Assembly (NCBI GenBank): GCA_025451195.1
Contig: JANWKV010000017.1
Span: 2,471-66,470 of the forward strand
Direction of reading: 5' to 3'
Length of the DNA stretch: 64,000 nucleotides
Source of the DNA: Candidatus Microgenomates bacterium
Lineage (GTDB): Bacteria; Patescibacteriota; Microgenomatia; Levybacterales; UBA12049
The notes beneath the pieces are model-generated. The model was not told the origin of the DNA, made no database searches, and saw only the letters and a program-made list of their open reading frames with translations. Below, in pieces: positions 18,267-64,000 of the stretch. Every line of letters begins with the position of its first letter. The stretch's first letter is position 1. The translations under genes were made by a program, and so were the position numbers.

Positions 18267-18295
18267 TTGACATTAAAAAGGAAACCTGAGATAAT
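18267..18295 (+). promoter_or_regulatory. Sigma-70-type promoter: TTGACA, 17 nt, GATAAT
   Basis: Consensus -35, 17-nt spacer and a near-consensus -10, about 140 nt upstream of the DAHP synthase ATG. Confidence 0.5.
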
Positions 18296-18349
18296 ATTTT
18301 TTGTGAGAAAGTTACAACAGAAAAATAGTTTTTGGTTTTATTTTACTTC

Positions 18350-18420
18350 CCTCCGGGAGGAGGCTTAAGGCTGTAAAATAAAGCCATAAAGCACTTACCT
18401 CCCAAGCGGGAGGTTTTTTT
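18350..18420 (+). promoter_or_regulatory. Leader attenuator: upstream hairpin CCUCC-GGGA-GGAGG, then intrinsic terminator CCUCCC-AAGC-GGGAGG-U7 ending 13 nt before the first aro gene
   Basis: Two hairpins built from the same CCUCC/GGAGG words allow alternative pairing. A 6-bp GC stem plus seven U sits between a promoter and the operon it must read through. Confidence 0.55.
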
Positions 18421-18433
18421 ATGTTTAAAATAT

Positions 18434-19276
18434 ATGATTTCAACTAAATTACGAAGAAAAATTATAATTGCAGGGCCTTGTGGGGCAGAAACAAAGGAAC
18501 AAATTGAAGATTCTGTGCGTGAAGCTAAGAATCTCCAGGTTGATTTTTTACGGGTAAATCTTTGGAAGCCACGCACAAAACCAGGTTTTGAAGGATTACA
18601 AAAAGAGGGATTGGAACTTATGATCGCGGCCGCAAAAGCCGGAATTACACCTGGCACAGAAGTTATCATGCCTCAGCATGCAAAACTTGTTATAAAACAT
18701 GTGCTGGCGGCAACAAAAAACGGTAAAGTGCTTATCTGGATTGGAGCGCGCAACCAGAACCATTTTATCCAAAGAGAAATATCAAAAATTGCATCCAAAA
18801 ACAACAGAGTTATTCTTATGGTAAAAAATCAAATCTGGCATAACGAAAAACACTGGGAAGGAATTGTGGAACATATCATGTCAGGCGGGATTAAGAAGGA
18901 AAACCTGTTACTTTGCCATAGGGGATTTGCGCCAATTGGAGAAAATCCAAACGGCTACAGGAATGTTCCGGATTTTGACATGGCAATGAGAATAAAAGAA
19001 AAAACGGGAATTCCCATGATTTTTGATCCATCCCATACAGGAGGAAGTATTGAAAAAGTATTTAAAATTTCACAAGAGGCGGATAACTTCGACTTTGACG
19101 GATACATGGTAGAAGTTCATCCAAATCCTAAACAAGCCTTGTCTGATGCAGATCAGCAATTAACATGGACTCAATTTAAATTGTTGCTCAAAGATCTATA
19201 TAATAGAAGAGTGGAGAAAACCAAAAGCCCTGATAAATTTTTAAGTAAAATTATTTATGAAAAAATTGTTAATTAA
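18434..19276 (+). CDS. 3-deoxy-D-arabino-heptulosonate-7-phosphate synthase (DAHP synthase), type I-beta, unfused
   Basis: IIAGPCGAE, KPRTKP, IGARN, LCHRG, DPSH and VEVHPNP…ALSD motifs are of the DAHP synthase/KDO8P synthase I-beta family. KPRT (not the KANRSS of KDO8PS) and the aro context favour DAHP synthase. Confidence 0.8.
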   Translation: MISTKLRRKIIIAGPCGAETKEQIEDSVREAKNLQVDFLRVNLWKPRTKPGFEGLQKEGLELMIAAAKAGITPGTEVIMPQHAKLVIKHVLAATKNGKVLIWIGARNQNHFIQREISKIASKNNRVILMVKNQIWHNEKHWEGIVEHIMSGGIKKENLLLCHRGFAPIGENPNGYRNVPDFDMAMRIKEKTGIPMIFDPSHTGGSIEKVFKISQEADNFDFDGYMVEVHPNPKQALSDADQQLTWTQFKLLLKDLYNRRVEKTKSPDKFLSKIIYEKIVN

Positions 19277-56760: not shown

Positions 56761-57924
56761 ATGGACGTTTATGAAGAAGCAATAAAGCTTCACAAAAAAT
56801 ACCAGGGAAAACTTGAAACCGTTTCTAAAATATTTGTTAAGGACAAACAAACACTTTCCCAGGTTTATACTCCCGGCGTTGGTGCTGTATCAAAAGCAAT
56901 TGAAGCTAATAAAGAATTGGCAAAAGAGCTAACTCTTAAAGGACGCACTATCGCAGTTGTTTCCGATGGAAGCGCTGTTTTGGGCCTCAGGAATATTGGA
57001 CCCGAGGCTGCAATGCCTGTTATGGAAGGGAAGGCAATTTTATTTAAGCAGTTTGGTGGACTTGATGCTTTTCCGATTTGTATTGGCACCCAAAATACAG
57101 GCGAGATTATCACATTTGTGAAAAATTTGACTCCAACATTTGCCGGAATTAATTTAGAAGACATCGAAGCACCCCGTTGTTTTGTTATTGAACAAGCTTT
57201 GCAAGACATTGGAATCCCTGTTATGCACGATGACCAGCATGGCACAGCAGTTGTTGTATTGGCAGGACTTTTAAATGCTGCAAAAGTTGTCGGCAAGAGT
57301 CTGCAAGATTTAAAAGTAGTAATAAACGGCGCAGGTGCTGCGGGTATTGCAATTGCAAATATGCTTTTATGTAAGAGTTTTGAATCCGACATCTGTACTC
57401 CTGTTGGGGATTTAATACTCGTTGACAGCAAAGGAATTATAGATCGCGACCGAAAAGACTTGAATATATTCAAAAAAGAAATTGCAAGGTATTCAAATAA
57501 AGAAAATAAATCGGGTATTCTTATGGACGGCTTAATGGGAGCAGACGTTTTTATTGGTGTTTCAAGAGGTAATCTTGTTACTCCAAAAATGATAAAAACC
57601 ATGAACAAAAATGCAATTGTTTTTGCAATAGCAAATCCAATCCCTGAAATTATGCCCGGTGACGCTAAAAAAGGCGGAGCAACAGTTGTTGCATCGGGAA
57701 GAAGTGACTTTCCGAATCAAATCAACAATGTTTTGGCTTTCCCTGGAATTTTTAAAGGTGCGTTAAAATCAGGAGCCACAAGAATAACAAACGTTATGAA
57801 ACATGCCGCGGCTTACGCAATAGCAGGAACAATTAAGAATCCAACGGCAGATGAAATTATTCCAAGTGTTTTTTATCCAAACCTTGCCGACATTGTTGCA
57901 AAAGCAGTTTCAGATGCCACCTAG
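56761..57924 (+). CDS. NAD(P)-dependent malic enzyme (small prokaryotic form)
   Basis: VYTPGVGAVSKAI; GAGAAGIAIANML Rossmann fold. The start is taken at ATG 56761, just after the folD stop. Confidence 0.8.
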   Translation: MDVYEEAIKLHKKYQGKLETVSKIFVKDKQTLSQVYTPGVGAVSKAIEANKELAKELTLKGRTIAVVSDGSAVLGLRNIGPEAAMPVMEGKAILFKQFGGLDAFPICIGTQNTGEIITFVKNLTPTFAGINLEDIEAPRCFVIEQALQDIGIPVMHDDQHGTAVVVLAGLLNAAKVVGKSLQDLKVVINGAGAAGIAIANMLLCKSFESDICTPVGDLILVDSKGIIDRDRKDLNIFKKEIARYSNKENKSGILMDGLMGADVFIGVSRGNLVTPKMIKTMNKNAIVFAIANPIPEIMPGDAKKGGATVVASGRSDFPNQINNVLAFPGIFKGALKSGATRITNVMKHAAAYAIAGTIKNPTADEIIPSVFYPNLADIVAKAVSDAT

Positions 57925-57939
57925 CTTCAAAATGACCCC

Positions 57940-57968
57940 TTGACAAGATATAAAACCCGTAGTATATT
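57940..57968 (+). promoter_or_regulatory. Sigma-70-type promoter: TTGACA, 17 nt, TATATT
   Basis: Consensus -35 and a good -10, about 430 nt upstream of argG. Confidence 0.5.
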
Positions 57969-57974
57969 GGTATT

Positions 57975-58402
57975 TAACAATTTAAGTTACGGCGTTGACG
58001 GAGAAAGACAACACGAAAGTGAAGTCCTCGAGCTCCTGAGCCAGTTCCAGAAAAAATTCGAAAGAATAGTAAGGAACAGAATAAGCCAATTTGACTCTCT
58101 GTCAAGGCATTCACAGAGGGATTTTTAATCGAAAGATTACCAGATTGGAAAGAAGCGTGGCACCACGGAACAATCCGTCGCTTTCTGCGGTTCTCTCAGT
58201 AAGGAGAGGCCCAGAAAGGGGCGGATTTTTGGTATTCCGACAGTTTTTTAAAAATAGAATACCAACCCGCCGACCAATCGCCCTGTGAGGCGTGCATGAA
58301 TAATACTGAAAAGCCGAACGGAAAGATTAGGCGGGTGTGAGTAAAAATGAAAGAAGATCCTGAAATCCCTTACAGGGTAAAAATTCAGGATGACAAAATT
58401 AT
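57975..58402 (+). ncRNA. Long GC-rich structured 5' leader, a candidate cis-regulatory RNA, ending in a hairpin that sequesters the argG Shine-Dalgarno (SD) sequence
   Basis: Local GC is ~50% against the ~33% background. Several nested stems (e.g. GGTATTC…GAATACC at 58241-58267). ATCCTGAA (58357-58364) pairs with TTCAGGAT (58384-58391), covering the AGGA ribosome-binding site. There is no convincing protein-coding frame. Confidence 0.45.
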
Positions 58403-59599
58403 ATGAAAAAAAATATAAACAAAAAAGTGATTTTAGCGTTTTCAGGGGGACTGGACACTTCATTCTGTGTTCCTTATTTAATGGAACAAGGATATGAAGT
58501 TGTAACTGTGACAGTTAACACTGGTGGATTTACTAAAAAGGAACTATTAAATATTTCTGAAAAATCAAAAAAACTTGGAGCTGTAAAACATTATGAAGTA
58601 AATGCAAAAAAAGAAATGTTTGAAAAAATAGCTTCATACATCATAAAGTTCCACGCTTTATATCAAAGCTCATATCCAAATATGTGTGCTGATAGATACA
58701 TTATTGCGGAGAAGGTTGTTAATATTGCAAAAAAAGAAAACACAAAATTTGTTGCACACGGATCAAGTGCAATGGGGAATGATCAGGTAAGGTTTGATTT
58801 ATCTTTTATGTTTCTTGCGCCAAACTTTACAATCCTTACCCCTATTAAGGAGATTGGTGGAAATAGAAAAAAAGAAGAACAATATTTAAAAGAAAAAAGC
58901 TTGCCATTTGAAATTAAGCATGCAAAATATTCCATTAACAAAAACATCTTGGGTGCCACATATTCCGGATTGGAAATTGATCAGCTTAAACAAGCAGATA
59001 AAAATATATTTACCTTGACTAAATTAATTTCTCAAAAACCCCAAAAACATATACTTTCATTTTTAAAAGGAATTCCAACTCATCTAAATGGCAAAAAAAT
59101 GTCAGGGGAAGAAATTCTTTCAAAGATGAATATAATTGCAGGAAGTTTTGGATTTGGACAAGAAGACTATACAGGTGACTGCATAATTGGAATAAAAGGA
59201 CACATTGCATTTGAAGCACCAGGAATCTTAACCCTTATAAAAGCACACAATGCATTACAGCAAGTAATACTGACAAAGCAACAACAAAATATTGGTGAAT
59301 ATATTAGTCACCAATTTGCCGAACTTTTATACAACGGTAAGTTTTTTGATTCAGTGTTAAAAGATTTACAAGCATTTATTGATTCTCAACAAAAGAGTGT
59401 TAATGGAAATGTAACGCTGATATTTGATTCCCATCAAGTTAAGGTTTCAGAAATTTCTTCGCCTAACTCTCTTATTAACCCTAAGATTGCAACATACGCT
59501 CAACAAGCTAGTTGGACAGCTCAAGACGCAAAAGGATTTATTACTTTATTTGGACTTCAGGAAAAAATATCTGCGCAAAAAGGAGAATTATATGAATAA
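58403..59599 (+). CDS. argG: Argininosuccinate synthase
   Basis: PP-loop ILAFSGGLDTS; ~400 aa. Confidence 0.85.
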   Translation: MKKNINKKVILAFSGGLDTSFCVPYLMEQGYEVVTVTVNTGGFTKKELLNISEKSKKLGAVKHYEVNAKKEMFEKIASYIIKFHALYQSSYPNMCADRYIIAEKVVNIAKKENTKFVAHGSSAMGNDQVRFDLSFMFLAPNFTILTPIKEIGGNRKKEEQYLKEKSLPFEIKHAKYSINKNILGATYSGLEIDQLKQADKNIFTLTKLISQKPQKHILSFLKGIPTHLNGKKMSGEEILSKMNIIAGSFGFGQEDYTGDCIIGIKGHIAFEAPGILTLIKAHNALQQVILTKQQQNIGEYISHQFAELLYNGKFFDSVLKDLQAFIDSQQKSVNGNVTLIFDSHQVKVSEISSPNSLINPKIATYAQQASWTAQDAKGFITLFGLQEKISAQKGELYE

Positions 59600-60143
59600 C
59601 GTAATTTTGACATCAAATTCAAATTCTACTTTTGTTCCAAATAATTCTTTACAAAAGGACATTCAAATCATTCTAGGGAAAAATGTTGCTGAAAAACTAA
59701 GTGAATCAGAGATAGATTTTCTTTCAAAAATGTATAGTCAAAAACTTGCAAAACACAAAGAAACAATGCTGCAGCTAACTAAATTTCAATTAAAAAAGAT
59801 TATTAATAGTGGCCTGATGATAATAGCTATTGATAAAAATACAAAAGAAATTATTGCCGGAGGAAGAATTATGTTTCATAAAAATCATACATATGAATTT
59901 TGCAGTTGGGTAGCTTTTAAAAAGGGTTTTGGAAAAATAATTATAAATTCTGCCAAAAAATTGGCACTTTCATTAGATAAAGCAGCAAGCCTTTACAGCG
60001 TAATTCAAAAAGACAATATATACGCTCAAATCGCATTGGAAAAAACAGGTGCAAAAAAATTGAATTCAAAACCCAAAGATCTTGTACTTATTTTGGAAAA
60101 ATCAGATGGGAAAAAAGCGGATGCTGTGTATTTTGAACTTTAA
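59592..60143 (+). CDS. GNAT-family acetyltransferase (183 aa), possibly a short-form N-acetylglutamate synthase
   Basis: Motif-A-like …WVAFKKGFGKIIINSAKKLA…. ATG overlaps the argG stop. Sits between argG and argH. Confidence 0.45.
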   Translation: MNNVILTSNSNSTFVPNNSLQKDIQIILGKNVAEKLSESEIDFLSKMYSQKLAKHKETMLQLTKFQLKKIINSGLMIIAIDKNTKEIIAGGRIMFHKNHTYEFCSWVAFKKGFGKIIINSAKKLALSLDKAASLYSVIQKDNIYAQIALEKTGAKKLNSKPKDLVLILEKSDGKKADAVYFEL

Positions 60144-60147
60144 ATTT

Positions 60148-61641
60148 ATGAAAAATAAGATATACGACGGAATTTATACAAAAGGACCAAATCAACAAAC
60201 AGATTCATTCATTGTAGATTTTGCACAACAACAAGCAGACAGTGAAATAGTACCTTTTTATTTGTGGGAAACGTTGGCGCACAATTATATGCTAATGAAA
60301 CAAAAAATTGTACCAGAAAAAGCTGCAAAGAAAATATTAAAAGAGCTAATTTATCATTCTGAAAATATTGAAAAGAATGGATTTATTGTTGACCCGTTAA
60401 TTGGGGACGTGCATGAAAATTTTGAAAATTTATTAATAAAATCAATTGGTGATATTGCGGGATGGATGCATGTTGCCAGATCAAGAAATGATCAAATTAC
60501 AACAGACCAAAAGTTAATTACCAAAAAATTACTTTTTGATCTTTATGGTCAAATTTTTAATCTTGCAAAAGTTTTAGAAAAAAAGGTTTACAAATACAAA
60601 AATGTTGTTATGCCGGGATTTACCCATTTTAGGGTAGCGATGCCTTCTTCATTTGGTTTCTGGTGGCAATCATATTTACAGCAAATTATTGAGTGTGAAG
60701 AAATTTTAAAGTCAGTATTTTTAACAACAGATATTTCTTCCTTAGGAGCCGGAGCATCGTATGGTGTGAATTGGCCGATTGATCCTAAAATGACCGCAAA
60801 TGACTTAGGCTTTGATAAACCTATGATAAATGCTCTTTTCGCTTTAAATTCAAGAGGAATACATGAATCATACGTTTTAGGACCACTTTGCAGTCTATCT
60901 GTAGTTTTATCGAGAATGATGGAAGATATTATTTACTTTAGCTCAGCTGAAATAAACTTTATTTTTGTTGATGAATCATTTACAACAGGAAGTTCAATAA
61001 TGCCTCAAAAAATGAATGCTGTTGTGGCAGAAAGAACAAGAAGTAAAGCTGCGAAAATATTAGGAAATTATATTACAACTTTAATAAGTTTGAAGGGAAC
61101 ACCTTCCGGTTACAACATGGACTCTGCAGAAACAAAAACTTCAATAATTGAGAGTTTAAAAATATTTATTGACACAATTAATATTGTTGCTCAAATGTTA
61201 GAAACAATCTCTCCCAATACAGCAGCTATGGGAAATGCTGTTGCACCGTCTTTGGCTACAAAGCTTGCGGATTGCCTCTCTCAAGATTATCAAATTCCAT
61301 TTAGAAAAACCCACCAGATTGTTGGAAAAGTTCTCCAACAAATTGATAAAGACATCTCAAAAATATCTTCTGAAAAATTGGAAAAAATAATTATGGAAAT
61401 TGTTGGCAAAAAAATTACGCTTCCAAAAGGATATTTGCAAAATATATTAGATTCAGAAAATGCTTTATCACAGTACTACTACAAAGGGTCTCCAAATCCA
61501 ACATATGTAGAAAAGGTAAATGCGGAGCTTTCGATACAAAACCAACAATTTTTAAACTGGTTTAAAAAAGAGCAAGAAAAATTTTATGATGCTAAGAAAA
61601 ATTTAGTAAGCAAAGTTAAAAAATATTTGAAGGAAAAATAA
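60148..61641 (+). CDS. argH: Argininosuccinate lyase
   Basis: Fumarate-lyase signature GSSIMPQKMN. The start is taken at ATG 60148, after the GNAT stop. Confidence 0.85.
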   Translation: MKNKIYDGIYTKGPNQQTDSFIVDFAQQQADSEIVPFYLWETLAHNYMLMKQKIVPEKAAKKILKELIYHSENIEKNGFIVDPLIGDVHENFENLLIKSIGDIAGWMHVARSRNDQITTDQKLITKKLLFDLYGQIFNLAKVLEKKVYKYKNVVMPGFTHFRVAMPSSFGFWWQSYLQQIIECEEILKSVFLTTDISSLGAGASYGVNWPIDPKMTANDLGFDKPMINALFALNSRGIHESYVLGPLCSLSVVLSRMMEDIIYFSSAEINFIFVDESFTTGSSIMPQKMNAVVAERTRSKAAKILGNYITTLISLKGTPSGYNMDSAETKTSIIESLKIFIDTINIVAQMLETISPNTAAMGNAVAPSLATKLADCLSQDYQIPFRKTHQIVGKVLQQIDKDISKISSEKLEKIIMEIVGKKITLPKGYLQNILDSENALSQYYYKGSPNPTYVEKVNAELSIQNQQFLNWFKKEQEKFYDAKKNLVSKVKKYLKEK

Positions 61642-61642
61642 T

Positions 61643-62737
61643 ATGAATTTATTAAAAAAACTAATACAAATACATTCTGTTTCAGGGAGTGAAAAAGAAA
61701 TTCAACAATTTATATTTGATTATTTCTTTAAAAAAAATTTGCAACCTTTTTATGTTGGGGAAAACGTTGTTGTAAAAATTGATGGAAATGACAATAAAAA
61801 ATCTCTAATTTTTAATGCGCATGTTGACACAATTTCTGCTGGGAATACAAAGCTATGGAAATATCCACCTTTTGCAGGAGTAAAGACAAATGGAAAAATA
61901 TATGGAGTGGGAGCAAGTGATAGCAAAGCAGGAATTGCAACCCTAATGATGCTTGGAAATGAATTTAAGAAAAATAAACCAAAGTGTGATATCTGGTTAA
62001 CATTTGTTGTAAAAGAGGAAACAGACGGATCGGGAACAAAAAACTTCATTAATCTCTTTACCAACAACTATAAGAAACAATATAAGGAAATTGCCGGGAT
62101 ATTACTTGAGCCGACAAATCTTTCCAAAATTGAAATTGCTCATAAAGGAAATGTTTTCCTAAAGGTTATTACATATGGTGATAGTGGACATGGATCTGCT
62201 CCTGAGTTGGTTAAAGAAAACGCAATCAATATTATGCAAAAAGTAGCAAAAAAACTTTTAAAACTAGAGAAAGAATGGAAAAAAGAATATGAAGATTCAC
62301 TTTTAGGAAGCCCCTCAATTGCTTTATTTACTTCATTACACGCAGGAGATCCCTTAAGCCCTAATAAAATTCCAGAAACTTGTGTCGCAACATTTGATAT
62401 TCGCACAACACCAAAAATGCATAAAAATGCTTTAGAAATGGTGAAGAAAGAAATAAAGGAAAAAAATATTGAAGTATTCACAAAATACAAACCTTTAGAA
62501 TGCGGATTTACATCTCCCAACGCAAGAATTGTAACAATCACAAAATCAAGCGCTGATTCGGAGATTTGTGCTTCTTCAAGCTCAAACGACCTTTTATTTT
62601 TTACAAAAGCAGAAATTCCCGCTGTAGTATTTGGACCGGGGAATACAAATGAAAAACACAAAGTAAATGAGTTTTGTGAAATCAAAAACTTGATAAAAGC
62701 AAAAGAAATTTATAAAGAAATTATTCAAAAATTTTAA
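61643..62737 (+). CDS. argE: M20-family metallopeptidase (acetylornithine deacetylase / succinyl-diaminopimelate desuccinylase, ArgE/DapE-like)
   Basis: …FNAHVDTISAG… and …GVGASDSKAG… metal-ligand motifs. Confidence 0.7.
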   Translation: MNLLKKLIQIHSVSGSEKEIQQFIFDYFFKKNLQPFYVGENVVVKIDGNDNKKSLIFNAHVDTISAGNTKLWKYPPFAGVKTNGKIYGVGASDSKAGIATLMMLGNEFKKNKPKCDIWLTFVVKEETDGSGTKNFINLFTNNYKKQYKEIAGILLEPTNLSKIEIAHKGNVFLKVITYGDSGHGSAPELVKENAINIMQKVAKKLLKLEKEWKKEYEDSLLGSPSIALFTSLHAGDPLSPNKIPETCVATFDIRTTPKMHKNALEMVKKEIKEKNIEVFTKYKPLECGFTSPNARIVTITKSSADSEICASSSSNDLLFFTKAEIPAVVFGPGNTNEKHKVNEFCEIKNLIKAKEIYKEIIQKF

Positions 62738-62738
62738 T

Positions 62739-64000
62739 ATGAAAAATGAATCAAAAAAACTAATCGTTATCGGGTGTGGACCAAAAGGAACTGCCCTTGG
62801 CGTTAAAAATAAAGTGCTTCAAGACTTAGGTTATAATGTTCCCGATGTTATTATCATTGAAAAAGAAAATGTTGGCGCACACTGGGACGGCAAACATGGA
62901 TTAACACACGGCAGATTACCTCTTGGGTCTGCTCCACAAAAAGATATTGGCTATCCTTACAGATCTTTATTTGATAAAAAGGTTGATAAAGAAATGCAAA
63001 AGTACTCATGGAACGCATACATGATTGAAAAAGATTATTACGTTGATTGGATTGATAAAGGAAGACTTGCCCCAACCCATATTGAATGGGCAAAATATTT
63101 TCAGTGGGCAGTTAAAAAGGCAGGGGTAAAAGTTTATAAAGGTGAGGTAGTAAAAATTAATAAAGAAGAAGATAAATGGAAAGTCAAATTTATTAATGGC
63201 AAGGCCAATGAAGTAATGGGTGACGGACTTGTTATCACTGGCCCAGGCGAACCAAAACAACTGCCTATTTATGGGATTGTTGAGAAAAAAAATTCAATTC
63301 CCACTGTCCTTGATGGTAAAAATTTTTGGCAATTTGTAAAACATTTTAGAAAATTAAAAAATGTAAAGATTGCGTTACTTGGCGGGGGAGAATCTGCAGC
63401 TTCAATTATCGTTGGGCTCCTAGATCATGTTGATATCGCAACAGTTAAAGTTGATTTAATAAATAATGGCCATGCAACTGTTTTTACAAGAAATGAAAAC
63501 TCACTTGATAATATGCATTTTTCAGACCCAACCCATTGGAAACTTCTAACAGAAGAAGAAAGAATACGCTTTATTAAAGCGGCAAGAGCAGGAAATTTTT
63601 CCGTTTATGCAAAAAATATTATTGACGAACATTACCTTAATTCATGGGTTTCATACAAGGCGGTTAATATGAAATATGTAAAACCGCTAAAAATTGTAGC
63701 CGGCTCTGACAAACCCGGTCTTGTTTATTCATTAGCAGATGGAAGCATTAAAAAATCCGAATATGATTTTATTATTTCCGGAATTGGATTTAACGCATTA
63801 AGTTTTACGAAATTTATGAAAGATACAAATGAACTTACAAATAAACACGACCTTGAGAAAAAAATTCAAGATGATATGAGTGTTAAGGACATAAAACCAA
63901 CACTTCATTTGCCAATGCTGTCTGCCTTAAATCAGGGGATTGGGTTTTCAGAATTAACGTGTCTTGGACTTTTAGCTGACAGAATTTTACAACCGTATGT
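62739..64000 (+). CDS. Flavin-dependent lysine/ornithine N-monooxygenase-family protein (SidA/IucD/PvdA-like), 3'-truncated by the window end
   Basis: Hand-translated; it is absent from the ORF track because it has no stop in the window. FAD motif VIGCGPKG, …HIEWAKYFQWAV…, NADPH motif LLGGGESAAS. Confidence 0.6.
   Translation, partial: MKNESKKLIVIGCGPKGTALGVKNKVLQDLGYNVPDVIIIEKENVGAHWDGKHGLTHGRLPLGSAPQKDIGYPYRSLFDKKVDKEMQKYSWNAYMIEKDYYVDWIDKGRLAPTHIEWAKYFQWAVKKAGVKVYKGEVVKINKEEDKWKVKFINGKANEVMGDGLVITGPGEPKQLPIYGIVEKKNSIPTVLDGKNFWQFVKHFRKLKNVKIALLGGGESAASIIVGLLDHVDIATVKVDLINNGHATVFTRNENSLDNMHFSDPTHWKLLTEEERIRFIKAARAGNFSVYAKNIIDEHYLNSWVSYKAVNMKYVKPLKIVAGSDKPGLVYSLADGSIKKSEYDFIISGIGFNALSFTKFMKDTNELTNKHDLEKKIQDDMSVKDIKPTLHLPMLSALNQGIGFSELTCLGLLADRILQPY

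What the first reader, a model, noticed from the sequence alone, without database searches (positions are those of the whole stretch)
57940..58402. ~430-nt GC-rich structured leader upstream of argG, ending in an SD-sequestering helix; candidate novel arginine-related riboswitch or regulatory RNA
A consensus TTGACA-17-TATATT promoter (57940-57968) is followed by a region whose GC content (~50%) stands out against the ~33% genome. It is dense in nested inverted repeats, e.g. GGTATTC/GAATACC at 58241-58267, GGGGCGG…CCGCC and CCTG/CAGG. It ends with an 8-bp helix, ATCCTGAA 58357-58364 paired with TTCAGGAT 58384-58391, that buries the AGGA ribosome-binding site 12 nt before the argG ATG. The only ORFs in the region start inside the promoter and have no RBS. 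The arg genes follow immediately. I could not match the sequence to RNase P, tmRNA, SRP, T-box, L-box or ykkC motifs by eye.
Basis: seen in the sequence. Interest (0 to 1): 0.7.

Follow-up and report, generated by a model that had tools for sequence, protein, structure and literature searches.

The report
Arginine-tRNA-sensing T-box leader of argG
The folded, GC-rich RNA leader in front of the arginine gene argG is not a new riboswitch: its first 260 bases are a divergent member of the well-known T-box family, which senses uncharged arginine tRNA, and the last 170 bases are folded RNA of unknown role that hides the ribosome-binding site.

Summary
The sequence features are real, although GC is 42% rather than 50%. 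The interpretation as a novel arginine riboswitch does not hold. Bases 57975-58231 are a T-box leader: Rfam RF00230, full-length alignment, 43 bits, E=3.6e-6 over the window, but below the curated cut-off of 93. It has a K-turn Stem I and an Arg codon (CGA+G) at the specifier position. It also has a Stem II S-turn, the UGGCACC bulge between covarying helices, and a mutually exclusive -35 kcal/mol terminator with a U-run.

Three relatives' argG leaders also carry T-boxes, one of them above Rfam's cut-off. All read CGC (Arg) and all end in terminators. T-boxes before argG are already known in Clostridioides difficile.

Three things are unusual. The host is a Levybacteria-like Patescibacterium (CPR). 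Stem I lacks the tRNA-elbow platform that transcriptional T-boxes normally need. And 170 further bases (58232-58402) follow the terminator. These fold into three hairpins (z = -3), and the last one buries the argG Shine-Dalgarno. This second part has no Rfam match and no detectable homologue, so its function is unresolved.

Verdict: a new, divergent member of a known family, of moderate to low interest.

The parts
57940..57968 (+). Sigma-70-type promoter: TTGACA (57940-45), 17-nt spacer, TATATT (57963-68). The inferred transcription start is near 57975.
   Evidence: (11 of 12 matches). The same TTGACA-N17-TATAAT-like arrangement sits just upstream of the T-boxes in L054, L143 and L145 (read by eye).
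57991..58042 (+). T-box Stem I, shortened. It has a GGC/GCC base, a K-turn (GUUGAC / UGA) and a GGAG/CUCC helix. The specifier internal loop is followed by a small capped helix (GAC-AA-CAC-GAAA-GUG-AA-GUC). There is no AG bulge and no distal-loop platform.
   Evidence: Rfam alignment (27 nt where the model has 74). MFE fold.
58029..58032 (+). Specifier codon CGA (Arg, 58029-31) followed by the purine G (58032). These are the last four bases of the 3' side of the specifier loop.
   Evidence: The equivalent positions read CGC+A in L054, CGC+G in L143 and CGC+G in L145.
58044..58077 (+). Stem II (GUUCC...GGAAC). Its internal loop has AGAAAA on one side and AGUAA on the other (S-turn / AGUA box).
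   Evidence: Rfam alignment (AGUA aligned to the model's AGUA). Fold.
58086..58148 (+). Branched element in the place of Stem IIA/B plus Stem III. The closing helix is CCAAUUUG/CAGAUUGG, with two inner hairpins, followed by AA before helix A1.
   Evidence: Fold. The Rfam alignment is poor here.
58152..58184 (+). Antiterminator (discriminator core). Helix A1 is 58152-57 / 58179-84. The 7-nt T-box bulge UGGCACC is at 58158-64. Helix A2 is 58165-69 / 58174-78.
   Evidence: -10.2 kcal/mol. (89% of cells paired over 5 sequences, 5 pairs with compensatory changes, slid controls 36-55%). (50.5 bits against model R1).
58172..58230 (+). Intrinsic terminator. The hairpin 58172-58227 shares its 5' arm with the 3' strands of A2 and A1. 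The U-run is 58226-58230.
   Evidence: -34.9 kcal/mol, z = -6.1, 0 of 200 shuffles. Sequence.
58229..58265 (+). Hairpin H1 (UUGGUAUUC ... GAAUACCAA) with a 19-nt A/U-rich loop. Role unknown.
   Evidence: -8.2 kcal/mol, z = -3.0.
58263..58339 (+). Long irregular hairpin H2 (ACCCGCC ... GGCGGGU closing helix). It carries a small ORF at 58296-58340 (MNNTEKPNGKIRRV*) with a GAGG 5 nt upstream. Role unknown.
   Evidence: -24.9 kcal/mol, z = -2.5. The ORF was read. No Rfam hit.
58357..58391 (+). Hairpin H3, which pairs the argG Shine-Dalgarno (AGGA 58387-90).
   Evidence: -13.0 kcal/mol, z = -3.0. (mean probability that the SD is unpaired is 0.02). (fifth most stable of 55 upstream regions).
58347..58406 (+). 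Second small ORF (19 codons). It runs through H3, and its TGA overlaps the argG ATG (ATGA). Possibly chance.
   Evidence: Read. No conservation data are available.
58403..62737 (+). The regulated operon: argG (58403-59599), an unknown 183-aa ORF, argH, and an ArgE/DapE-family deacylase.

Best explanation
**What it is.** Bases ~57975-58231 are a tRNA-Arg-responsive T-box riboswitch that controls transcription of an argG-argH-argE-like operon in a Levybacteria-like Patescibacterium.

**How it most likely works.** This mechanism is inferred from the family; it is not shown here.
- The nascent leader presents the codon CGA in the Stem I specifier loop to the anticodon of tRNA-Arg.
- If the tRNA is uncharged, its 3' NCCA end pairs with UGGC of the 7-nt bulge. 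That stabilises the weak antiterminator (-10 kcal/mol), and RNA polymerase reads through into argG.
- If the tRNA is charged, the much stronger terminator (-35 kcal/mol, followed by UUUUU) forms and transcription stops at about 58230.
- Stem I lacks the distal platform that binds the tRNA elbow. Binding therefore presumably leans on the Stem II S-turn, as in the short-Stem-I T-boxes of Actinobacteria.

**The downstream 170 nt.** Bases 58232-58402 are a separate, lineage-specific addition. They fold into three hairpins, and the last one masks the argG Shine-Dalgarno. My best guess is that this sets a low basal translation rate or affects mRNA stability, rather than sensing anything. That part is inference only.
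For: **Family match**
- Rfam T-box gives a full-length alignment (model positions 1-219) at 57986-58185, 43 bits, E = 3.5e-8 locally and 3.6e-6 over the whole 64 kb. It is the only regulatory RNA hit in the leader.
- The hallmarks are present: K-turn, Stem II AGUA, GUGGCACCACGG, and a terminator overlapping the antiterminator.

**Independent relatives**
- argG leaders of relatives also carry T-boxes: L054 at 42.8 bits, L145 at 31.3 bits, and L143 at 95.5 bits, which is above the gathering score.
- A Clostridia-like argH-argG operon (L064) has one at 97 bits.
- The specifier position reads an Arg codon followed by a purine in all of them: CGA-G, CGC-A, CGC-G, CGC-G and AGG-G.
- All have terminators with U-runs.

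**Structure support**
- The antiterminator helices covary: 89% of cells paired against 36-55% in slid controls, 5 compensatory pairs, 0 of 500 shuffles reaching the covariation score.
- A covariance model of the discriminator finds only these five sites in 368 kb.

**Literature**
- T-boxes precede argG, argC and argH in C. difficile (PMC11477304).
- Arg T-boxes prefer specifiers ending in C or A (PMC7778990).

**Second part**
- It is more structured than shuffles (z = -3.0, 0 of 200 shuffles as good), and the SD is predicted to be 98% paired.
Against: **Against the T-box assignment**
- The Rfam score is less than half the curated gathering score (43 against 93).
- The Stem I distal platform (IDTM) is absent. 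A review calls it essential for transcriptional T-boxes (PMC7583486).
- The Stem IIA/B pseudoknot and F-box are not recognisable in the window's copy.
- The base pair at the bottom of helix A2 is A-U instead of the usual G-U.
- No tRNA-Arg gene is in the window or in any fetched locus, so anticodon and discriminator complementarity could not be checked.
- No experiment exists for this or any related organism.

**Against any reading of the 170-nt second part**
- I have no homologue at all.
- The closest genome (gyrA 86% identical) lacks the arg operon at this position.
- The other T-box leaders have only 0-60 nt after the terminator.
Confidence: 0.85

Rival explanations
1. The whole ~430-nt leader is one novel small-molecule riboswitch (arginine, citrulline, ornithine or guanidine) whose expression platform is the SD-sequestering helix.
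For: The leader is strongly structured. It precedes arg genes. No Rfam family reaches its gathering score. The SD is predicted to be paired.
Against: The first 260 nt align end to end with the T-box model and carry its diagnostic bulge, a terminator and an Arg specifier. Relatives have T-boxes at the same place without the SD-helix domain. A strong terminator separates the two parts, so they are not one aptamer.
Confidence: 0.03
2. The 170-nt second part is a second, translational control layer driven by ribosomes.
- The small ORF 58296-58340 has tandem Arg codons AGG-CGG lying in the 3' arm of H2. It would act as a leader peptide.
- Stalling there would free GCCCUGUGAGG (58280-90) to pair with CCUUACAGGGU (58368-78) inside H3, opening the argG SD. 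This resembles ermC-type translational attenuation.
- Alternatively, ribosomes are relayed from uORF1 to uORF2 to argG by termination-reinitiation.
For: - uORF1 has a GAGG 5 nt before its AUG, which sits in the open apical loop of H2.
- uORF2 starts 6 nt after uORF1's stop, runs through H3, and ends in ATGA on the argG start.
- The 11-bp X:Y duplex is worth -20.1 kcal/mol.
- AGG and CGG are minority Arg codons, 17% and 8% of Arg codons.
- The argG SD is 12 nt from the AUG, which is a long spacing.
- The same genome appears to use leader-peptide attenuation upstream of a DAHP synthase gene.
Against: - Masking a stalled ribosome raises predicted SD accessibility only from 0.02 to 0.17, and H3 stays in the MFE structure.
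- An 11-bp complement with G-U pairs is expected about 0.3 times by chance in 171 nt (my estimate).
- Short ORFs are common in AT-rich sequence.
- None of the three other T-box leaders has such ORFs.
- The relay version would lower argG translation during Arg starvation, which is the wrong direction.
- No homologue exists to test coding conservation.
Confidence: 0.1
3. The second part (H2, perhaps with H3) is an undescribed ligand-binding aptamer in tandem with the T-box. This would give two-input control of argG.
For: It is more structured than shuffles (z = -3.0). Its GC is above that of the surrounding genes. It ends in an SD-masking helix. No known family matches it.
Against: - There is no conservation anywhere I could search: 151 loci, phages and plasmids.
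- It is absent from every related argG leader.
- H2 is a long irregular hairpin with a 21-nt A/U loop, not a compact multi-helix junction.
- I found no alternative pairing that would release the SD.
Confidence: 0.05
4. The T-box is a decaying relic that no longer switches, and the operon is expressed or silenced constitutively.
For: The Rfam score is low. The Stem I platform is missing and the IIA/B region is unrecognisable. The arg operon sits at a synteny break and is missing from the closest relative, which is consistent with recent acquisition.
Against: - Every element needed for the decision is intact: promoter, K-turn, in-register Arg codon plus purine, perfect UGGNACC bulge, paired A1 and A2, and a strong terminator with a U-run.
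- Two other lineages (L054, L145) keep even shorter Stem I forms with intact discriminators and terminators, which argues for a maintained design.
- Without an antiterminator mechanism, a -35 kcal/mol terminator would silence the operon.
Confidence: 0.07

Closest known systems
Transcriptional (class I) T-box riboswitches, Rfam RF00230, for example Bacillus subtilis glyQS and tyrS
   Same: - Domain order: Stem I with K-turn and specifier, Stem II with S-turn, then a discriminator with the UGGNACC bulge.
- A weak antiterminator competes with a strong terminator followed by a U-run.
- The specifier codon matches the amino acid of the regulated pathway.
   Different: - Stem I has 27 nt where the model has 74, and it lacks the AG bulge / distal loop platform that binds the tRNA elbow.
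- The IIA/B pseudoknot is not recognisable.
- The base pair of A2 is A-U.
- The score is below Rfam's cut-off.
- The host is a Patescibacterium, not a Gram-positive bacterium.
- 170 nt of extra structured RNA follow the terminator.
Arg-specific T-boxes upstream of arginine biosynthesis genes in Clostridioides difficile (CD1785 argG, CD2034 argC, CD2500 argH)
   Same: The same family controls the same gene (PMC11477304). The Clostridia-like contig L064 shows a 97-bit T-box with specifier AGG before argH-argG. After other Patescibacteria, the closest relatives of the window's argG are Clostridia / Bacillota, at 50-52% identity.
   Different: Those have full-length Stem I and pass Rfam's threshold. 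They use a different Arg codon. They have no long post-terminator domain.
Actinobacterial ileS T-boxes with intermediate or ultrashort Stem I (Mycobacterium tuberculosis, Nocardia farcinica)
   Same: Stem I lacks the elbow-binding platform. The specifier sits in a side bulge (window) or in an apical loop (L054, L145), as described for intermediate and short Stem I forms. Stem II with its S-turn is retained (PMC7583486).
   Different: Those act on translation, through an SD sequestrator. Here, and in L054 and L145, the expression platform is an intrinsic terminator with a U-run well upstream of the SD. They are specific for Ile rather than Arg, and the phylum is different.
Leader-peptide translational attenuation (ermC / cat type) and uORF translational coupling. 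This comparison applies to the second part only.
   Same: A small ORF with regulatory codons lies inside one hairpin. It is followed by a hairpin that masks the SD of the main gene. The stop and start overlap as ATGA.
   Different: There is no conservation. The predicted structural shift on stalling is small. The regulatory logic of the coupling version runs the wrong way. Membership is not claimed.

Membership tests
T-box riboswitch (RF00230) | Score at or above Rfam's curated gathering threshold (93 bits) | tested here: not met
   43.0 bits, E = 3.6e-6 over the window. The relative L143 scores 95.5 bits and L064 scores 97 bits.
T-box riboswitch (RF00230) | T-box sequence: a 7-nt bulge 5'-UGGNACC-3' between helices A1 and A2 (the antiterminator) | tested here: met
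   UGGCACC at 58158-64, flanked by a 6-bp A1 and a 5-bp A2. 89% of cells are paired across 5 sequences, with 5 compensatory pairs.
T-box riboswitch (RF00230) | A mutually exclusive terminator (or SD sequestrator) that uses the 3' strands of A1 and A2 | tested here: met
   The terminator at 58172-58227 (-34.9 kcal/mol, z = -6.1) plus UUUUU overlaps 58174-58184 of the antiterminator. Relatives have the equivalent.
T-box riboswitch (RF00230) | Stem I with a K-turn (GA motif) at its base | tested here: met
   GCG-UUGA...CUGA-GC aligns to the model's GCgaUGA...cugGAGC with high posterior probability. This is a sequence pattern only; the 3D fold was not tested.
T-box riboswitch (RF00230) | A specifier codon matching the regulated pathway, followed by a conserved purine, at the 3' end of the specifier loop | tested here: met
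   CGA+G at 58029-32. CGC+A, CGC+G and CGC+G in the three related argG leaders, and AGG+G in L064.
T-box riboswitch (RF00230) | Stem I distal platform (AG bulge plus distal loop, the interdigitated T-loops) that stacks on the tRNA elbow | tested here: not met
   Only 27 nt lie above the specifier helix, where the model has 74. These fold into a plain GAAA-capped helix. Its absence is known in translational T-boxes (PMC7583486).
T-box riboswitch (RF00230) | Stem II with an S-turn (AGUA box / purine string) | tested here: met
   GUUCC-AGAAAA...AGUAA-GGAAC at 58044-58077, with AGUA aligned to the model. Sequence level only.
T-box riboswitch (RF00230) | Stem IIA/B pseudoknot with an F-box (CCGUUA) | tested here: inconclusive
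   The window aligns poorly here, and a branched element replaces it. L054 has ACGG...CCGUAA and L145 has GACGGG...CCCGUUA.
T-box riboswitch (RF00230) | Purines flanking Stem III (5'-RRRxG-Stem III-AA-3') | tested here: inconclusive
   The window has AAGCC before and AA after the branched element, so the G position is C. L054 has AAGCG and L143 has AAGUG (read by eye; motif taken from PMC7583486).
T-box riboswitch (RF00230) | A cognate tRNA whose anticodon pairs with the specifier and whose discriminator base pairs with the N of UGGN | not testable with these tools
   No tRNA-Arg gene is in the window (only tRNA-Val) or in 19 related loci. The prediction is anticodon ICG or UCG, and G73.
T-box riboswitch (RF00230) | tRNA-dependent, charging-sensitive read-through | not testable with these tools
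   This needs in vitro transcription or a reporter assay.
Leader-peptide attenuator (for 58232-58402) | A conserved small ORF enriched in the regulatory codon, with alternative pairings that depend on ribosome position | tested here: inconclusive
   The ORF has 2 Arg codons among 14. An alternative 11-bp pairing exists, but SD opening rises only from 0.02 to 0.17. Conservation cannot be tested because there is no homologue.

The most novel reading that the evidence does not exclude
The argG leader is a two-tier sensor. The first tier is a platform-less T-box that nevertheless acts by transcription termination. That combination is said to be disfavoured, because the elbow platform is thought to be essential for co-transcriptional tRNA capture. 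The second tier is an undescribed translational gate at 58232-58402: either a leader peptide with tandem Arg codons or a new aptamer, which opens the SD-masking hairpin H3. If this is true, Patescibacteria, whose gene regulation is called virtually unknown, would carry their own streamlined T-box design plus a new RNA element.
Probability: 0.12. Interest if true: 0.6.

Novelty: new member of a known kind. Interest (0 to 1): 0.3.

Why it matters
**Annotation.** Curated thresholds miss this element (43 bits against 93). It and similar leaders therefore go unannotated in Patescibacteria genomes. A clade-specific T-box model would recover them.

**Distribution.** The papers I read describe T-boxes as a feature of Gram-positive bacteria. 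I found no paper in the searchable library that mentions T-boxes together with Patescibacteria or the candidate phyla radiation.

**Design.** Four argG leaders show Stem I forms from full length to a 4-6-nt apical loop. All are coupled to terminators. This natural series could test how much of Stem I a transcriptional T-box really needs.

**Physiology.** It shows that an organism with a reduced genome still regulates a citrulline-to-arginine route by tRNA charging.

None of this changes the basic understanding of T-boxes.

Tried and rejected
**Housekeeping RNAs.** RNase P, tmRNA, SRP and 6S gave no Rfam hit at the gathering score or at E <= 10 in the leader. ARAGORN finds only tRNA-Val in the window.

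**Searches for related loci**
- The genome-contig scan with the argG protein returned only Bacteroidota, Myxococcota and similar loci at <= 41% identity. It was useless for the leader.
- The metagenome scan with an argG alignment returned loci at <= 52% identity. Only L064 had a T-box among the 20 scanned.
- I looked for closer relatives through gyrA (86% identity). They are syntenic up to the malic enzyme gene and then diverge, so they hold no homologous leader.

**Similarity searches for the second part.** nhmmer against all loci and the window found nothing credible. The one L059 hit, at E = 0.003, lies far from argG. BLAST against phages and plasmids found nothing.

**Ideas considered by eye and dropped**
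- A second, degenerate T-box in the second part: there is no UGGNACC there, and model R1 finds only one site in the window.
- ArgR operator: CATGAATAATACTGAA at 58295-58310 matches the left half of the Bacillus ARG box as I remember it, but not the right half, and it lies 350 nt downstream of the promoter.
- An internal promoter: none was found on the + strand apart from the one at 57940.
- An antisense gene: the 71-aa minus-strand ORF looks spurious.
- H1 or H3 as terminators: neither is followed by a U-run.

The first starts in the -35 hexamer, upstream of the inferred transcript start. The second spans Stem III, the antiterminator and the terminator and has no SD. I did not test them further.
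Full report
**Observation**

- The promoter TTGACA-17-TATATT at 57940-57968 matches 11 of 12 consensus positions.
- The 8-bp helix 58357-64 / 58384-91 is exact and contains the AGGA at 58387-90, 12 nt before the argG ATG at 58403.
- The two TTG-start ORFs exist.
- The 436-nt leader folds far better than shuffled versions: -131 kcal/mol, z = -5.4.

Two details are off.
- GC is 41.9% over the finding, with a peak of 48% in one 200-nt window. The window average is 35.7% and the arg genes are 30.9%. It is not '~50% against ~33%'.
- The GGTATTC/GAATACC arms lie at 58231-37 and 58258-64.

**What the first 260 nt are**

At Rfam's gathering thresholds the window holds only a tRNA-Val. With E-value reporting, the leader gives a full-length alignment to the T-box family RF00230 at 57986-58185. 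The score is 43 bits against a gathering score of 93. E is 3.5e-8 for the local search and 3.6e-6 for the whole window.

The alignment and the folds show the T-box parts in their canonical order:
- Stem I (57991-58042) with a K-turn.
- An internal specifier loop whose 3' side is CUCGAG.
- Stem II (58044-77) with an AGUA S-turn loop.
- A branched element (58086-58148) followed by AA.
- The antiterminator (58152-84) with the 7-nt bulge UGGCACC.
- A terminator hairpin (58172-58227, -34.9 kcal/mol, z = -6.1) followed by UUUUU.

The terminator's 5' arm is made of the 3' strands of the antiterminator helices. The antiterminator alone is worth only -10.2 kcal/mol. This is the standard T-box arrangement, in which uncharged tRNA has to stabilise the weaker fold.

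**Specificity**

By the family's rule, the codon is the three bases before the conserved purine that closes the 3' side of the specifier loop. Here that gives CGA plus G (58029-32), which is arginine and matches the operon.

**Relatives**

The organism is a Patescibacterium close to Levybacteria.
- gyrA is 82-86% identical to MAG proteins. Those that carry a name are called Patescibacteria group, Levyibacteriota or Levybacteria.
- argG is 57-63% identical to Patescibacteria, Shapirobacteria and Woesebacteria proteins.

I fetched ten informative argG loci of this group, counting the window. Four have a T-box directly upstream of argG:
- the window;
- L054, at 42.8 bits;
- L145, at 31.3 bits;
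- L143, at 95.5 bits, above Rfam's cut-off.

The others have short plain leaders.

The specifier position reads CGC+A (L054, in a 4-nt apical loop), CGC+G (L145, in a 6-nt apical loop) and CGC+G (L143, in a full-length Stem I after GAA). A Clostridia-like contig (L064, argG 50% identical) has a 97-bit T-box with AGG+G before argH-argG. All five leaders end in terminators with U-runs.

Across the five sequences the antiterminator helices are 89% paired. Five of the eleven pairs show compensatory changes. The same measure falls to 36-55% when the partner strand is slid by 1-3 columns. A covariance model of this discriminator finds only these five sites in 368 kb, which includes the whole window.

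I consider the T-box identity and the arginine specificity well supported.

**Comparison with what is known**

- T-boxes upstream of argG, argC and argH are listed for Clostridioides difficile (PMC11477304). The gene-regulator pairing is therefore not new.
- TBDB reports that Arg T-boxes prefer specifiers ending in C or A (PMC7778990), which fits CGC and CGA.
- What departs from the textbook form is Stem I. The window has 27 nt where the model has 74, and it lacks the AG-bulge / distal-loop platform that stacks on the tRNA elbow. L054 and L145 are shorter still.
- A recent review states that transcriptional T-boxes generally require the long Stem I with this platform. It says that intermediate and ultrashort Stem I forms are typical of translational T-boxes in Actinobacteria, where Stem II becomes essential (PMC7583486).
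- Here, platform-less Stem I forms are coupled to what look like ordinary intrinsic terminators. That mismatch is the main point of specialist interest. It rests on sequence analysis only.
- The papers I read describe T-boxes as Gram-positive elements. I found no paper in the library that mentions T-boxes together with Patescibacteria or the candidate phyla radiation. A perspective calls regulation in these bacteria virtually unknown (PMC11665869). I cannot exclude that databases such as Rfam or TBDB already list such cases.

**The last 170 nt (58232-58402)**

It is predicted to form three hairpins:
- H1, 58229-65;
- H2, 58263-58339;
- H3, 58357-91.

Together they fold better than shuffles (-40.4 kcal/mol, z = -3.0, 0 of 200 shuffles as good). 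H3 pairs the Shine-Dalgarno, whose mean probability of being unpaired is 0.02. Its stability ranks fifth among 55 gene-upstream regions of the window.

There is no Rfam match at E <= 10. There is no similarity in any of 151 fetched loci, in phage records or in plasmid records. The three other T-box leaders have only 0-60 nt between terminator and start codon.

The nearest genome (L149) is syntenic at 74% nucleotide identity up to the end of the malic enzyme gene, at 57912. After that it carries a different gene. The arg operon with its leader therefore sits at a synteny break and has no close counterpart to compare.

Two small ORFs are present.
- ORF 58296-58340 (MNNTEKPNGKIRRV*) is preceded by GAGG. 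Its tandem Arg codons AGG-CGG lie in the 3' arm of H2.
- ORF 58347-58406 runs through H3 and ends in ATGA on the argG start.

An 11-bp pairing between 58280-90 and 58368-78 could compete with H3. However, masking a ribosome stalled on the Arg codons raises predicted SD accessibility only from 0.02 to 0.17. I estimate that a complement of that length is not rare by chance.

I therefore treat a ribosome-driven or ligand-driven second switch as possible but unsupported. I take the default view that this is a lineage-specific structured spacer that lowers basal translation or affects mRNA stability.

**Mechanism, and what is shown versus inferred**

Shown by computation:
- the family alignment;
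- the motifs;
- the competing terminator and antiterminator, with their energies;
- the Arg codon at the specifier position in every related leader;
- covariation in the discriminator.

Inferred from the family's established mechanism:
- uncharged tRNA-Arg (anticodon ICG or UCG, discriminator G73) binds the nascent leader and stabilises the antiterminator, allowing transcription of argG, an unknown ORF, argH and an ArgE-like gene;
- charged tRNA-Arg lets the terminator form.

Not testable here:
- the tRNA partner, because no tRNA-Arg gene is in the window or in the fetched loci;
- any actual switching.

**Verdict**

The finding is a real regulatory RNA, but of a known kind. It is a divergent, sub-threshold member of the T-box family, specific for arginine, in a Patescibacterium. 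It has a truncated Stem I and an unexplained structured extension. The claim of a novel arginine riboswitch is not supported for the T-box part and is untested for the extension.

Interest is moderate to low (0.3). The most novel reading still open is a platform-less transcriptional T-box plus a new translational gate. I put that at about 0.12 probability.

Noticed in passing
window 18267-18433: A likely leader-peptide transcription attenuator lies upstream of a DAHP-synthase-like gene (18434-19276) and a 3-dehydroquinate-synthase-like gene (both named by me from the translations, not checked).
- Promoter TTGACA-17-GATAAT.
- A 21-codon ORF starting at GTG 18303, containing F-W-F-Y-F.
- A long hairpin that pairs those codons, GGGAGG/CCUCCC alternatives, and a terminator ACCUCCC-AAGC-GGGAGG followed by U7.
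- Rfam Phe_leader scores 47.7 bits against a gathering score of 55, E = 7.3e-5. The fold has z = -4.2.
- The GTG start is almost leaderless, which is odd.
   Followed up: partly
window 59592-60143; also L054 4199-4792, L141 1915-2493, L143 3289-3849, L145 3697-4233, L147 1265-1810, L148 3010-3582: An unknown ORF of 178-197 aa always sits between argG and argH in these Patescibacteria loci. It has no Pfam or NCBIfam match and no match to a PDB sequence. By eye it has a GNAT-like 'KKGFGK' motif, so it may be a divergent acetyltransferase of the arginine pathway.
   Followed up: partly
window 57912-57940 compared with L149 13588-13770: This is a synteny break. The closest relative (gyrA 86% identical) shares gyrB-ppa-gyrA-folD-malic enzyme with the window at about 74% nucleotide identity. 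After the malic enzyme gene it carries a different gene. The best argG homologue anywhere is only 63% identical. The T-box-arg operon therefore looks patchily distributed, perhaps horizontally acquired. The next-best argG relatives are Clostridia / Bacillota at about 50%.
   Followed up: partly
L143 1896-2093, window 57991-58042, L054 2735-2766, L145 2234-2253: The argG T-boxes of related Patescibacteria form a graded series of Stem I forms. L143 has a full length Stem I with platform. The window has an intermediate form with a side-bulge specifier. L054 and L145 have ultrashort forms with the specifier in an apical loop of 4-6 nt. All keep terminators. In L143 the SD (AGGA) lies in the 3' arm of the terminator, so that hairpin could also act as a sequestrator.
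   Followed up: partly
L145 2086-2162: A tRNA-Cys (GCA) gene lies immediately upstream of the promoter of the argG T-box in this GC-rich relative.
   Followed up: no
L059 2925-3003 (and L060): This Shapirobacteria argG has no T-box. It has a promoter followed by a short hairpin, CCUAGAG...CUCUGGG, with a U-run that ends right at the start codon. This may be a different kind of attenuator.
   Followed up: no
window 62739-64000: Directly after the ArgE/DapE-like gene comes a gene with a lysine/ornithine N-monooxygenase domain (Pfam PF13434, E = 8e-14). That is an unusual partner for an arginine operon in a reduced genome.
   Followed up: no
window 58105-58078, minus strand: A promoter-like site, TTGACA-16-TATTCT (10 of 12 matches), lies on the strand opposite the T-box and points back towards the malic enzyme gene. 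The number of such sites found matches the number expected from shuffles, so it is probably chance.
   Followed up: no
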